Source: Octopus vulgaris (lineage: Eukaryota). Taken from it: a stretch of DNA of 64,000 nucleotides. This document shows, piece by piece, positions 15,196-63,075 of the stretch. The position numbers and the translations under genes are program-made. The notes under the pieces were generated by a model. It did no database searches. It worked only from the letters and a program-made list of their open reading frames with translations, and was not told the origin of the DNA. The DNA lies in NCBI GenBank assembly GCA_951406725.2, contig OX597827.1, forward strand, positions 76,942,001 to 77,006,000, written 5' to 3'. Position 1 is the first letter of the stretch. Each line of letters opens with the position of its first letter.

Positions 15196-15501
15196 ATATA
15201 TATATATATATATATTTGTATATTTTTGTAGATATATATATATATATATATATATATAATAATATTAGTGGAGTAAATCCAAACTTATAGGGAAAAATTA
15301 GATTTAGGATTAAATCTAATTTTACAGTATAAATAAATTTTTAAATTAAAAAATTTTAATTTTAAAATAAAATTTTTAATTTAAATTTTGAATTTTATAT
15401 TTTATATATTTTGTATATTATATTAATTAATTTTATTTCTATGTTTTGGCTTATGTTTTTCACTGTTTGATTTGCCTAATAGTGGTTTTATCTCTAATTT
15501 A

Positions 15502-15536
<35 letters not shown>

Positions 15537-15537
<1 letters not shown>

Positions 15538-15704
15538 ATGGATCAAAACAATTTGATTCAAATTCATTGGCACTCTTAAGTCTGAAGCACAATGCTAGCT
15601 GTCAGCCATTTTGAATTTGATTTAAATTCAAAATGGCTGATGACTAGTATTGTGCTTGAAGCTCAAGAGACCAACAAATTTGAATCAAACCATTTTGATC
15701 CATA
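15537..15704. mobile_element. Fully palindromic ~168-bp MITE or foldback element flanked by TA
   Basis: TATGGATCAAAA...TTTTGATCCATA; arms pair imperfectly up to the central TTGAATTTGATTTAAATTCAA. Confidence 0.7.
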
Positions 15705-15784
15705 CATATAACGCCCAATAAATTGGTTGAGTGCCTTTCTTTCATCTGTCCACTCACTCATGTATATATATATATATATATATA

Positions 15785-19343: not shown

Positions 19344-19526
19344 TTATTTGTAAGTTAACAAAGCAACCATTGGTTTCTTGCTGACAATTCTCAGCAATTA
19401 TCAATCCTGCCATATGAGACAGTCATCTAAAATGGAGATGAGCACCAATGTCCCATGTGGCAGGATTGATAATTGCTAAGAATTCTTGACATGAAACCAA
19501 TGGTAGCCTTGTTAACCCACAAATAA
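19344..19526. repeat. ~75-bp imperfect inverted repeat of hammerhead-bearing fragments
   Basis: Right arm: (A)TGTC...GACAT-GAA-ACCAATGGT-A-GCC; left arm on minus strand retains GAUGA-C-UGUC; related fragment at 5165-5200. Confidence 0.7.
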
Positions 19527-41446: not shown

Positions 41447-41504
<58 letters not shown>

Positions 41505-41527
41505 CATACATACATATATACATATAT

Positions 41528-41575
<48 letters not shown>

Positions 41576-41650
41576 TCATATACATGCATATATATATATA
41601 TATATATATATATACTCATATACATGCATATATATATATATATATATATG

Positions 41651-41696
<46 letters not shown>

Positions 41697-41711
41697 CATA
41701 TATACATATAT

Positions 41712-41757
<46 letters not shown>

Positions 41758-41836
41758 TAAATATTAGGGAATAAATCCAAATTTACAGGGAAAAAAAATC
41801 AGATTTAGGATTAAATCCAATTTTATAGTAAAATAT

Positions 41837-42152
41837 TATAAAATATTATTAGAGACAAAACCACTATTTTGCAAAACAAACAAGGAAAGACTTAATCAAT
41901 ACATAAAATTTTAATAAATAGTCAAAAAAACCACCACTACAATCGTTTCTTGTCTTGATCGACAATCTTCAGGTGGACTTCCAATAAGTCAATTTCAAAT
42001 TATGAAGTCATAATTTGAAATTGACTTAGAAGATTGTCGATCAAGACAAGAAACGATTGTAGTGGCGGTTTTTTTGACTATTTATTAAAATTTTATGTAT
42101 TGATTAAGTCTTTCCTTGTTTGTTTTGCAAAATAGTGGTTTTGTCTCTAATA

Positions 42153-42162
<10 letters not shown>
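41837..42162. repeat. Near-perfect ~133-bp inverted repeat with an inner 21-bp palindrome, flanked by (TA)n
   Basis: 41837-41970 is the reverse complement of 42029-42162; inner TAAGTCAATTTCAAATTATGA-AG-TCATAATTTGAAATTGACTTA. Confidence 0.95.
41934..41976 (-). ncRNA. Minimal type I hammerhead ribozyme, fully canonical
   Basis: Minus strand CCAC-CUGAAGA-UUGUC(GAUCAA)GACAA-GAA-ACGAUUGU-A-GUGG; predicted cut between 41938 and 41937. Confidence 0.85.
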
Positions 42163-42184
<22 letters not shown>

Positions 42185-42194
42185 CTCATATACA

Positions 42195-42233
<39 letters not shown>

Positions 42234-46879: not shown

Positions 46880-47056
46880 TCTGGGCACAGGAGTTGGTGG
46901 TTATCTGCCCTCTGGCTCTATAAACAAACAAGCATGCTTTCTGCACCAAAGCCAATATGAGAGTTTCTCTCATAATACAATTCTGTATTTCAGAGATGAG
47001 GAATTATGTACATTATTTACAATTGATAGATATTTGTCCTCATCTTGTTTGTTGTT

Positions 47057-47102
47057 AACACAATGTTTCGGCTGATATACCCTCCAGCCTTCATCAGGTG
47101 TC
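47057..47102 (-). ncRNA. Minimal hammerhead motif in the inverted arm
   Basis: Exact reverse complement of 47366-47411. Confidence 0.7.
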
Positions 47103-47200
47103 TTGGGGAAATTTCGAACCTGGATTCTCATTCCTAAGGTATTTTTTGATGTTGTTATTATTGTTGTTGTTGTTGTTATTATTCAGGTCACTACGCCTGT

Positions 47201-47275
47201 GGGCATATGGCATAGTGGTTAACAGCACAGGCTACAAACCCCAAGATTCCGAGTTCGATTCCAAGCAGTGACCTA

Positions 47276-47313
<38 letters not shown>

Positions 47314-47429
47314 CAACATTGAAAAATACCTTAGGAGTGAGAACCTCGGTTCAAAATTTCCCCAAGACACCTGATGAAGGCTGGAGGGTATATCAGCCGA
47401 AACATTGTGTTAACAACAAACAAGATGAG
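47201..47429 (+). mobile_element. tRNA-headed SINE-like element carrying a hammerhead
   Basis: A-box TGGCATAGTGG 47208-47218, B-box GAGTTCGATTCC 47251-47262, (TAA)n linker, then HHR. Confidence 0.78.
47366..47411 (+). ncRNA. Minimal type I hammerhead motif
   Basis: GACAC-CTGATGA-A-GGCTG(GAGGGTATAT)CAGCC-GAA-ACAT-T-GTGTT; ACAT is one CpG-type change from palindromic ACGT. Confidence 0.72.
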
Positions 47430-48013
47430 ATCAGATTTGAGCCTGGTGCAGCTTTCTGGCTCACCAGTCCTCAGTTAAACTGTCCAACCCATGCCAGCAT
47501 GGAAAGCAAACATTAAACGACGATGACATTGATGATGATGATGATGATGATAATATCGTAATTGTTTACAAATACCGAACATTCAAATAGTGAGTGAGAG
47601 ACCTCGCCATTTTTACATCAATACCAGAAGTTGACATTGAAAAACCTTTTGAAAGAAGTGAATCGTAAATATAAAGCAATATTTTTTTTATTTAAAAAAA
47701 AAAATCAAATGAAGACCCTATTATAGGTCAAAGGTCAAATTATTCATGTATGGAAGTATGAAAGTAATCGGTAAAGCCGTTTTCATGTGAAAAGCAAATA
47801 CACACATTGGCTTCTTTTAGATTCCATCTACCAAATCCATCAGAAGGCTTTGGTCACCCCAAGGCTATAGTAGAAGACTCTTGCCCATGGTGCCACGCAG
47901 TGGGACTGAACCCAGAACCATGTGGTTATGAAACAAGCTTCTTACCACACAGTAACACCCGCACCTCAAAATTTCATGAAAATTCCTGATTAATTCAAAA
48001 CTGCAAATAAATA

Positions 48014-48176
48014 AGGCATAATGGCTGTGTGATATGAAGCTTGCTAACCAACCACATGGTTTCGGGTTCAGTCCCACTGCGTGGCATGTTGGGCAAGTAT
48101 CTTCTACTATAGCCCCGGGCCAACCAATGCCTTGTGAGTGGATTTGGTAGACGGAAACTGAAAGAAGCCTGTCGTA

Positions 48177-53620: not shown

Positions 53621-54203
53621 AGAAAGTAGAAAGGAGTACAGGCTCTCACCACAACAGAAATATTGACCTGTTCAGAGGAGAGGGTGCAATATGTCACACT
53701 TTATCATATCTTGTATCTTTTATTTGTTTCAGTCATTAGGCTGTGGCCATGCTGGGGCACCACCTCAAAGAATTTTTAGTCAAGTGAACAGACCTCATTA
53801 CTTATTCTATCGGTCTCATTTGCTGAATACTGATTGTAGGGGACAATCACAAACACAAGGACACACATACACAGATATATACACATATACAAACAGCTTC
53901 ATTCAGTTTCCTTCTACCAAATCCACTCACAAGGCTTTGGTCAACCCAAAACTATAGCAGACAACTCTTTTCCAAGGTACCACACAATGGGACTGAACCC
54001 TGAACCATGTGGTTGGGAAGCCAACTTCATACCACACAGCCATGCCTGCATTTTTACCACAATAGAAAGACCTTGATGATATTTTGGTGGTCAGCCTCTA
54101 ATCAAATGCAGGATATCTTCCACACAATTATGACATAATCCACATTTTTTTGGTGCAGCTGTAGATTTAATGGTTTAAGTGTCTCTTTTTTTTTTTGCCT
54201 ATG

Positions 54204-54607
54204 AGGCGTAGGAGTGGCTGTGTGGTAAGTAGCTTGCTTATGAACCACATGGTTCCAGGTTCAATCCCACAGCAAGTGTCTTCTACTATAGCCTCAAGCC
54301 GACCAAAGCCTTGTGAATGGATTTGGTAGATGGAAACTGAAAGAAACCCGTCATATATATGTATATGTATATATATGTGTGTGTATATATTTGTGTGTCT
54401 GTGTTTGTCCCCCCAACATCGCTTGACAACCGATGCTGGTGTGTTTACATCCCCGTACCTTAGCAGTTCGGCAAAAGAGACCGATAGAATAAGTACTAGG
54501 CTTCCAAAGAATAAGTCCTGGGGTTGATCTGCTCAACTAAAGGCAGTGCTCCAGCATGGCCACAGTCAAATGACTGAAACAAGTAAAACAGTAAAAGAGT
54601 AAAAGAG
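54204..54607 (+). mobile_element. SINE family A
   Basis: Homologous to 1093-1519. Confidence 0.9.
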
Positions 54608-61880: not shown

Positions 61881-63075
61881 ATAATGGCACCAACACCAGG
61901 GAAGTTCCCATGTCCATAGCCAGATGGAAGATCCCACATGAATCTGTTAGTGTTTCTGCTCAATGACCAACCACTTGACCCACAGAGGACTAAGAGCATT
62001 CTATTGTGGCACCAACACTAGTGATGTTGCCTTGTTCCTCAGAAAGCCATCAGCAGCATCTCTACTGATTGAAGGCGGTGTGACAACAAAAGGGAACAGG
62101 AGAGAAAGTGATGATGAAAGAAACAGAATGGGTGGATGAAGGCAGCAGGAGTTTGATGGGAGAAACAGAGGGATTGGAATAAAATGGTTGTAGAGGAAAG
62201 TGTAGTGGAAGAGAGACAGTGATGGGGGGAGTAAGAAGAGAAAGAGAAGGTCAGAGAGTGGTGGAGGGAGCAATATGGACAGATGTAGAAGGACTGTAGG
62301 CTATAAAGACATCAAAGATGGATTACAGTACAGCTATGTTTGTATGCGACAACCTCAAGTCATGAGTCAAACTGTTATGAAGTAGGTATGTACATATATG
62401 GATGGATTTATATATTATTTGTATTATACATATATACATACATATATCCATATATACATATATAAATTAAATTAGAGACAAAACCACTATTAGGCAAATC
62501 AAACAGTGAAAAACATAAACCAAAAACATAGAAATAAAATTAATCAATATAATATACAAAATATATAAAATATAAAATTCAAAATTTAAATTATTTTAAA
62601 TTTAAAGTTAAAAATTTAAAATTATTAATTTATATTTATAAATTTATATATATATATATATATATATTTTTTTATTATTAAATATATATAACTATCAAAA
62701 AGCATTAAAAAGTTTAATATAAGATATATTATATTTATAATAATAATATTAGGGAATATGATGCCAAACTTGTTTTGTAATTTACTTAATTATGGGTATA
62801 TGTTTTATCGCATATTCTGTTGTGTCTGGGGAGAGTCATTTTCTTTTTGTGCCTTATAATGTAACAGACTCACTGGTAAAATTTCCACTTTTTTCTTACT
62901 TTTGTTTTCCTAAAATTTTCGTTGCGTCTTGCAACCTTTTCAATAATCTTGACTCTTTTATTCTTTTATCATATATTTAATTTTTTTCTATATGGTATGA
63001 TTTACTTATATCATTGTTGAATTGCTACATGGTGGTTCTTCTCTAATTTATAAACATATATTATATATATTTATA

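What the first reader, a model, noticed from the sequence alone, without database searches (positions are those of the whole stretch)
41755..42162. Young-looking palindromic insertion with a textbook minimal hammerhead
Seen: ~133-bp arms differing at only about two positions, a nested 21-bp perfect palindrome at the centre, and an HHR with all core nucleotides and perfect stems I and II. A transcript through the locus would form long dsRNA that sequesters the ribozyme, and the DNA could extrude a cruciform. Inference: a recent Penelope-type inverted insertion and a possible endo-siRNA or ADAR substrate.
Basis: partly seen in the sequence, partly recalled or inferred. Interest (0 to 1): 0.7.

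Follow-up and report, generated by a model that had tools for sequence, protein, structure and literature searches.

The report
Spliced Penelope leader pasted twice, head-to-head
The palindrome is real and is one of hundreds of similar insertions: two back-to-back DNA copies of the intron-less front end of a young Penelope-type jumping gene, likely made by copying one spliced RNA twice from two fixed points, which offers a way to test how these elements build inverted ends and keep their introns.

Summary
The palindrome is real, but it is one inverted repeat: 134-bp outer arms with 1 mismatch, a 14-bp deletion in the right arm, and 21-bp inner arms. One hammerhead is intact (minus strand); the deletion destroys the other. 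The element sits in (TA)n and has hundreds of relatives.

I found the parent: a 6.0-kb Penelope-like element with an 839-aa ORF bearing Hydra-clade motifs. Its pLTR holds a 23-nt exon, a 1,818-nt GT-AG intron and the hammerhead exon. The window copy lacks exactly that intron.

Across copies, one arm ends at leader position ~172 and the other at ~255 (24/25 and 27/28 pairs). Both arms share a common allele (65/65). Spliced and unspliced arms never pair (0/47). Spliced arms stop at the inferred transcription start; unspliced ones carry upstream DNA (26/26).

Best reading: two target-primed reverse transcriptions on one sense, spliced RNA. Cleavage, transcription of this locus, cruciform and ADAR editing are untested, and endo-siRNA is unlikely in a mollusc.

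The parts
41749..42008 (-). Long arm: copy of the spliced leader of the element, position 1 (inferred transcription start, 42008) to ~255-260
   Evidence: Aligned to exon 1 + exon 2 of parent L187: 2 substitutions, 1 indel; coordinates
41986..42008 (-). Exon 1 (23 nt); in the parent it is followed by a GTAAGT donor
41985..41986 (-). Splice junction: the 1,818-nt GT-AG intron of the parent pLTR is missing exactly here
   Evidence: intron L187:608-2425; 271 junction matches genome-wide
41934..41976 (-). Type I minimal hammerhead, all core bases present, predicted cut after 41938; activity not shown
41749..41836 (-). One-sided tail (~85 nt) between the two inferred reverse-transcription start sites
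42008..42162 (+). Short arm: second, inverted copy of the spliced leader, positions 4 to ~172, ending in (TA)n
   Evidence: 53 of 56 inverted arms end at 164-178
42028..42029 (+). Site of a 14-bp deletion that removes stem I 5' strand and CU of the short arm's hammerhead
42005..42008 (.). Head-to-head junction; the long arm keeps the full 5' end, 1-nt overlap; 21 such junctions against 9 of the mirror form genome-wide
41450..41754 (.). Left (TA)n compound microsatellite, the target
42161..42232 (.). Right (TA)n microsatellite; shares a 13-nt interruption with the left flank, so no clear target-site duplication can be called

Best explanation
The palindrome is two head-to-head copies of the intron-less 5' leader of a Penelope-like retrotransposon with Hydra-clade motifs, inserted in (TA)n, and was likely made when the element's enzyme copied one spliced, sense-strand RNA twice from two fixed internal start points and the two cDNA ends were joined. 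SHOWN: parent structure (exon 1, 1,818-nt intron, hammerhead exon, 839-aa ORF, second pLTR); exact loss of the intron in both arms; two fixed 3' ends; one-long-one-short pairing; allele sharing between arms; (TA)n flanks. INFERRED: the transcription start at leader position 1; cutting of both target strands by the GIY-YIG domain; priming of each cut end at leader ~255 and ~172, both UUUAUA sites that can pair with a TATA primer; repeated use of one RNA; end joining through 1-5 nt of microhomology; the 14-bp deletion arising during or after insertion. Because the start sites also exist in the cap-proximal pLTR, priming there would give short spliced copies like this one, while priming in the downstream pLTR of a read-through RNA would give long copies that keep the intron. 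This copy is most likely a dead-end product, without a function of its own.
For: Parent: L187 has two pLTRs (2061 of 2074 aligned bases identical, period 5,998 bp) around an open 839-aa frame; other copies are 98-99.9% identical. The ORF aligns to a Pfam-positive PLE protein (prob. 95%, E 1.8e-8), and its model's 7 best PDB matches are telomerase RTs. Splicing: GTAAGT...TTTTAG with no repeat at the junction. A second isoform uses a donor 4 nt downstream, and sources whose first donor reads GAAAGT match a GAAA junction form. There are 271 spliced junction matches, but only 5 matches with upstream DNA. 26 of 26 intron-bearing exon-1 copies among the first 30 of 291 matches carry upstream DNA. 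Fixed ends: 24 of 25 head-to-head pairs among the first 100 of 1,394 matches and 27 of 28 paired loci among 40 more are long+short. One template: 65 of 65 pairs agree at a common G/A site, and 46 of 47 classifiable pairs agree in isoform, none spliced/unspliced; 0 of 40 further spliced loci have intron sequence within 2.3 kb. Two cDNAs, not a hairpin: the short arm reaches further 5' in 11 and the long arm in 9 of 38 abutting pairs; both mirror junctions occur (21:9); in L241 and L247 the long arm starts at 175-176, right at the second site, with no overlap; L029 has different isoforms in its two arms. Fits in vitro data on an Anolis PLE: both strands cut and extended, two internal starts bounding the tail, uncleaved RNA the main template (PMC11167929).
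Against: No biochemistry, and no RNA reads that show the start site or splicing; all is read from genomic copies. Central deletions or arm-to-arm conversion after insertion could mimic unequal 5' ends and allele sharing (10 shared singleton variants against 36 one-arm singletons). Four loci (5 arms) hold upstream DNA plus the spliced junction and could act as intron-less masters. L029 breaks the one-RNA rule. The pair sample is mixed and partly pattern-selected, with one locus counted twice (L093 = L096). The Anolis start sites are not homologous to the target, whereas these look microhomology-guided, and the tail is ~85 nt, not 30-40. This copy's own junction (42000-42027) was not covered in 4 of 4 runs at 98% likeness, so the locus itself has no independent read support. 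Pfam finds neither RT nor GIY-YIG in the ORF or its 13 aligned homologues.
Confidence: 0.75

Rival explanations
1. Fold-back: one cDNA primed at ~255 runs to the RNA 5' end, hairpins on itself, and second-strand synthesis stops at ~172 where it anneals to (TA)n; mirror forms arise later by repair.
For: Predicts shared alleles and isoforms in both arms; the commoner junction keeps the full 5' end in the long arm (21 of 30); exon 1 holds a small natural hairpin.
Against: Cannot give short arms that reach further 5' than the long arm (11 of 38), non-overlapping arms that meet at the second site (L241, L247), lone short arms (7 of 40) or discordant isoforms (L029) without extra events.
Confidence: 0.12
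2. The short copies come from one or a few intron-less, non-autonomous master copies (SINE- or retrozyme-like), not from fresh splicing of the parent's RNA; the joining mechanism could still be dual priming.
For: Four loci carry upstream DNA with the spliced junction; related short subfamilies exist whose intron-bearing source I did not see.
Against: Two splice isoforms occur, and the same variants segregate in spliced and unspliced copies; no tandem array of the short unit was seen in the loci examined.
Confidence: 0.1
3. Self-priming on an antisense template, as proposed for rotifer Penelope palindromes (PMC3846280, Discussion).
For: Head-to-head palindromic junctions are what that model was made to explain.
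Against: Both arms carry an exact GT-AG splice junction and stop at one 5' boundary, which needs a sense, spliced RNA.
Confidence: 0.03
4. The palindrome is a functional hairpin locus (siRNA, ADAR or cruciform signal) or an assembly fold-back.
For: Very stable predicted hairpin; the private junction was not seen in 4 runs.
Against: One of hundreds of like insertions; asymmetric arms with biological end points; no sign of a host exon; no dedicated siRNA pathway reported in molluscs.
Confidence: 0.05

Closest known systems
Hydra-clade Penelope-like elements (Craig et al. 2021, PMC8557442; seen: passages, section 11, supplement part 2 of 59 and a term search)
   Same: Single ORF with C-terminal GIY-YIG-type domain, DKT, CxCx5C, CxxC and CxH motifs, no CCHH, hammerhead near the 3' end, (TA)n targets, inverted 5'-truncated copy and tail.
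   Different: Unit is 6.0 kb with a 1.8-kb pLTR intron (the clade is described as generally <3 kb); KWK for RWK; Asn-rich insert; the hammerhead differs from the listed Hydra-1_Obim; a large class of spliced leader-only copies.
Poseidon element of Anolis, PAc (Frangieh et al. 2024, PMC11167929; seen: parts 1-2 of 4 of the text)
   Same: Two internal start sites bounding the tail, AT-rich targets, both strands used, hammerhead not cut in the template.
   Different: PAc starts lie inside the ORF, are not homologous to the target and bound a 30-40-nt tail; here they lie upstream of the ORF, resemble the (TA)n target and are ~85 nt apart.
Drosophila virilis Penelope and Adineta vaga Penelope families (PMC2377424 passages; PMC3846280 passages and Discussion; PMC4209133 parts 1-2 of 4)
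   Same: Intron in the pLTR 5' UTR just upstream of the hammerhead, Inr-like TCACT, head-to-head inverted pLTR with a junction palindrome.
   Different: Those papers stress intron retention; in the passages read I saw no spliced genomic copies, and they leave sense versus antisense template open.
L1 twin priming (recalled, no paper read)
   Same: Two target ends prime on one RNA and give an inversion joined by microhomology.
   Different: Here the second site is fixed and the two cDNAs usually overlap, giving a palindrome.
Animal non-LTR retrozymes (bioRxiv 10.64898/2026.07.22.740005; seen: part 1 of 5)
   Same: Short, non-coding, type I hammerhead, derived from a PLE pLTR.
   Different: Defined as direct tandem repeats with two or more hammerheads; this is an inverted pair with one intact motif.

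Membership tests
EN+ Penelope-like elements | Parent ORF with telomerase-like RT | tested here: met
   hhalign to a Pfam-positive PLE protein E 1.8e-8; best fold matches are TERTs; Pfam RVT_1 itself not hit
EN+ Penelope-like elements | C-terminal GIY-YIG endonuclease | tested here: inconclusive
   YIG, R, H, E, N pattern conserved in the alignment; no Pfam hit; top fold hits cover the RT only
EN+ Penelope-like elements | Tandem pLTRs with hammerhead | tested here: met
   L187
EN+ Penelope-like elements | Inverted 5'-truncated copy and one-sided tail | tested here: met
   56 of 81 sampled loci have an inverted arm; tail ~85 nt, longer than the 30-40 nt in print
EN+ Penelope-like elements | Intron retained in genomic copies | tested here: not met
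   Not met for this copy and 271 junction matches; met for long copies
Hydra clade | DKT, CxCx5C, CxxC, CxH motifs; no CCHH | tested here: met
Hydra clade | RWK motif | tested here: inconclusive
   KWK in this ORF; RWK or RWR in most homologues
Hydra clade | (TA)n insertion preference | tested here: met
Hydra clade | Generally short (<3 kb) | tested here: not met
   Period 5,998 bp; a typical rather than defining trait in the paper
Hydra clade | Placement in the RT tree with named Hydra elements | not tested
   No named Hydra sequence was available as a tool object; filing rests on motifs
Minimal type I hammerhead | Core CUGANGA / GAAA / NUH, stems I and II, self-complementary loop III | tested here: met
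   core and stems invariant while N7 and loop II vary across 13 variants; covariation not above shuffles
Minimal type I hammerhead | G10.1-C11.1 pair | tested here: not met
   U-A here; A-U, U-G or unpaired in relatives
Minimal type I hammerhead | Self-cleavage as monomer or dimer | not testable with these tools
   Active fold has ~1% stem I probability in the monomer; 5' ends cluster just downstream of the cut site, a hint only
Non-LTR retrozyme | Direct tandem units, two or more intact hammerheads | tested here: not met
MITE / fold-back DNA transposon | Symmetric termini and a fixed internal structure | tested here: not met
   Unequal ends, variable centres, splice junction; family definition recalled

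The most novel reading that the evidence does not exclude
This family is a natural record of the Penelope-like cycle. A protein dimer sits on one sense RNA at two fixed sites and primes both ends of a cut in (TA)n. The cap-proximal pLTR intron is spliced and the downstream pLTR intron is not, so 'intron retention' follows from which pLTR is primed and needs no antisense template. A second cluster of 5' ends just past the hammerhead cut site records cleavage in vivo.
Probability: 0.4. Interest if true: 0.7.

Novelty: new variant of a known kind. Interest (0 to 1): 0.5.

Why it matters
The locus itself is ordinary retrotransposon debris. The family matters because how Penelope-like elements make head-to-head repeats and keep introns is called open in the papers read (PMC3846280 Discussion; PMC8557442 passages). 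Hundreds of spliced, start-site-bounded palindromes argue for a sense template and dual priming. An intact young ORF with two mapped start sites gives a ready in vitro test.

Tried and rejected
Rfam: no hammerhead family at E<=10 over 41800-42000. The whole-window scan listed mostly repeat-driven miRNA matches, all below their gathering scores among the 150 of 296 shown.

The abundant 781-aa GIY-YIG family was my first candidate parent; its ends do not match this unit.

I first read depth 26 and 41 over 42012-42025 (95% likeness) as support for this copy's junction. At 98% there was no cover in X1, X2, X3 or X6, so I withdrew it. Absence in contigs is no proof of polymorphism. Run X12 is only guessed to be RNA, so it shows no transcription.

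A cap-derived extra G at position -1 is possible but confounded by the palindrome and by microhomology: inconclusive. Target-site duplications could not be called in microsatellites. Hammerhead covariation is not above shuffled controls. The PDB sequence search with the alignment found nothing.

Literature searches for spliced genomic PLE copies and for hammerhead palindromes found none in the listings. Arkhipova 2003, 2005 and 2006 and Lunse 2017 (recalled) were not read and may bear on this, as may 58 unread parts of the PMC8557442 supplement.

Full report
Observation. Window 41749-42162 holds one inverted repeat inside (TA)n. The outer arms are 134 bp with one mismatch, and the inner arms are 21 bp and perfect. 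A 14-bp stretch (41971-41984) lacks a partner because it is deleted from the right arm. The left arm runs ~85 bp further. The fold is far beyond chance (z -36). A type I hammerhead with full core is on the minus strand; the plus-strand copy lost stem I 5' and CU. Rfam does not detect it, and it lacks G10.1-C11.1.

Family. The window lies in a 2.8-Gb genome. It is an octopus by inference from a named homologue and earlier notes of the scan. The long arm has 1,413 candidate matches, 40 scored, most with an inverted partner. A 29-mer of the tail occurs 2,195 times, related subfamilies included, control 0. Of 81 loci taken in order along C1 from the first 100 listed, 56 have an inverted arm, and 53 of these end at leader 164-178.

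Parent. Some copies continue upstream into a GT-rich kilobase ending in TTTTAG. Following this gave L187: exon 1 (23 nt), a 1,818-nt intron from GTAAGT to TTTTAG, exon 2 with the hammerhead, an open 839-aa frame, and a second pLTR 5,998 bp on. Other ORF copies are 98-99.9% identical. Pfam misses the protein, but it aligns to a Pfam-positive PLE protein, and its model (pLDDT 78.7) best matches telomerase RTs. Its motifs fit the Hydra clade of Craig et al.. The published Hydra-1_Obim has a different hammerhead. No tree was built.

The copy is spliced. Both arms join exon 1 to exon 2 exactly. The junction occurs 271 times, but only 5 times with upstream DNA (a longer pattern, so slightly stricter). 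Among the first 30 of 291 matches of exon 1 followed by G, 26 bear the intron and all 26 carry upstream DNA; 3 are spliced at a donor 4 nt downstream, and 1 is unclassified. Sources with a mutated first donor exist, and so do junctions that fit their second donor. I infer a transcription start at leader position 1, inside an Inr-like TCACT (compare), and a sense template.

Two fixed starts, one template. Among the first 100 of 1,394 matches at the internal site, 52 stop there and 46 run on; 24 of 25 head-to-head pairs join one of each. In 40 further spliced loci, 27 of 28 paired ones do the same, 12 have no partner, and none has intron sequence nearby. In 90 arm pairs pooled from all loci then held (mixed selection, one duplicate), 47 were classifiable in both arms: 28 spliced/spliced, 13 unspliced/unspliced, 5 alternative/alternative and 1 discordant between the two spliced forms; 43 were truncated or unclassified in at least one arm. 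All 65 pairs covering a common G/A site agree, against about 53% expected if independent.

Dual priming or fold-back. Either arm can reach further 5' (11 short, 9 long, 18 equal of 38). Both mirror junctions exist (21 and 9). In L241 and L247 the long arm begins at the second site with no overlap. These favour two cDNAs. Later deletion or conversion in palindromes is the main caveat. The picture agrees with the Anolis PLE in vitro and disfavours antisense self-priming for the spliced class.

Hammerhead. Core and stems are invariant across 13 variants while N7 and loop II change, and loop III stays self-complementary; formal covariation is not significant. The active fold is rare in the monomer, as expected for dimer-type motifs. 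This copy's template was uncleaved, since it keeps sequence upstream of the cut. Of 45 arm 5' ends between leader 30 and 170, 3 fall before the cut site and 26 within 72-100, none at 70-74 (arms of one locus are not independent). Cleaved templates, RT stalling or AT-rich microhomology could each explain this.

Function of this copy. It differs from the parent by one private substitution, one shared substitution, one homopolymer indel and the deletion, so it is young. Its junction was not found in four runs, which neither confirms nor refutes it. No host exon was detected, no transcription is shown, and molluscs are reported to lack a dedicated siRNA pathway. It is most likely inert.

Verdict. 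This is a known kind of insertion from a family I did not find described. The spliced, start-bounded class is a variant I did not find in the searches run or in the scan's notes. The short/long rule and the Hydra link were noted before on other DNA of this genome; I reached both before that look-up. Interest 0.5.

Noticed in passing
window 47039-47429: Another head-to-head palindrome with a hammerhead motif on each strand (47097 -, 47371 +), ending in (TTA)n, with a SINE- or tRNA-like piece in the centre; a different family.
   Followed up: partly
window 15244-15505 and 62461-62544: Older, hammerhead-less remnants related to the same family: an inverted stub and a lone short arm.
   Followed up: partly
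window 15535-15706 and 19344-19526: Two diverged short palindromes (77-81% arm identity), no hammerhead by pattern; MITE-like, unclassified.
   Followed up: no
window 47809-48169 and 53839-54412: Inverted pairs of a very common SINE-like repeat.
   Followed up: no
L046-L061, e.g. L049:768-4471: Abundant young RT + GIY-YIG family with many open 781-aa frames and an overlapping upstream 479-aa frame of no known family; no hammerhead found by pattern at its ends.
   Followed up: partly
L187:2709-5228, residues ~490-600: Asn-rich, low-confidence insert between RT thumb and endonuclease linker, as described for rotifer Penelope families.
   Followed up: no
L187:585-620 and window 41973-41990: Splicing creates a 5-bp hairpin (exon 1 end with exon 2 start) next to hammerhead stem I, so splicing could change ribozyme folding.
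   Followed up: partly
L261: A short arm joined directly to TTAGGG-type repeats, suggesting insertion at telomeric repeats.
   Followed up: no
L095, L080, L091: A diverged subfamily whose hammerhead has a much longer stem II and a perfect CGAUCG loop III.
   Followed up: no
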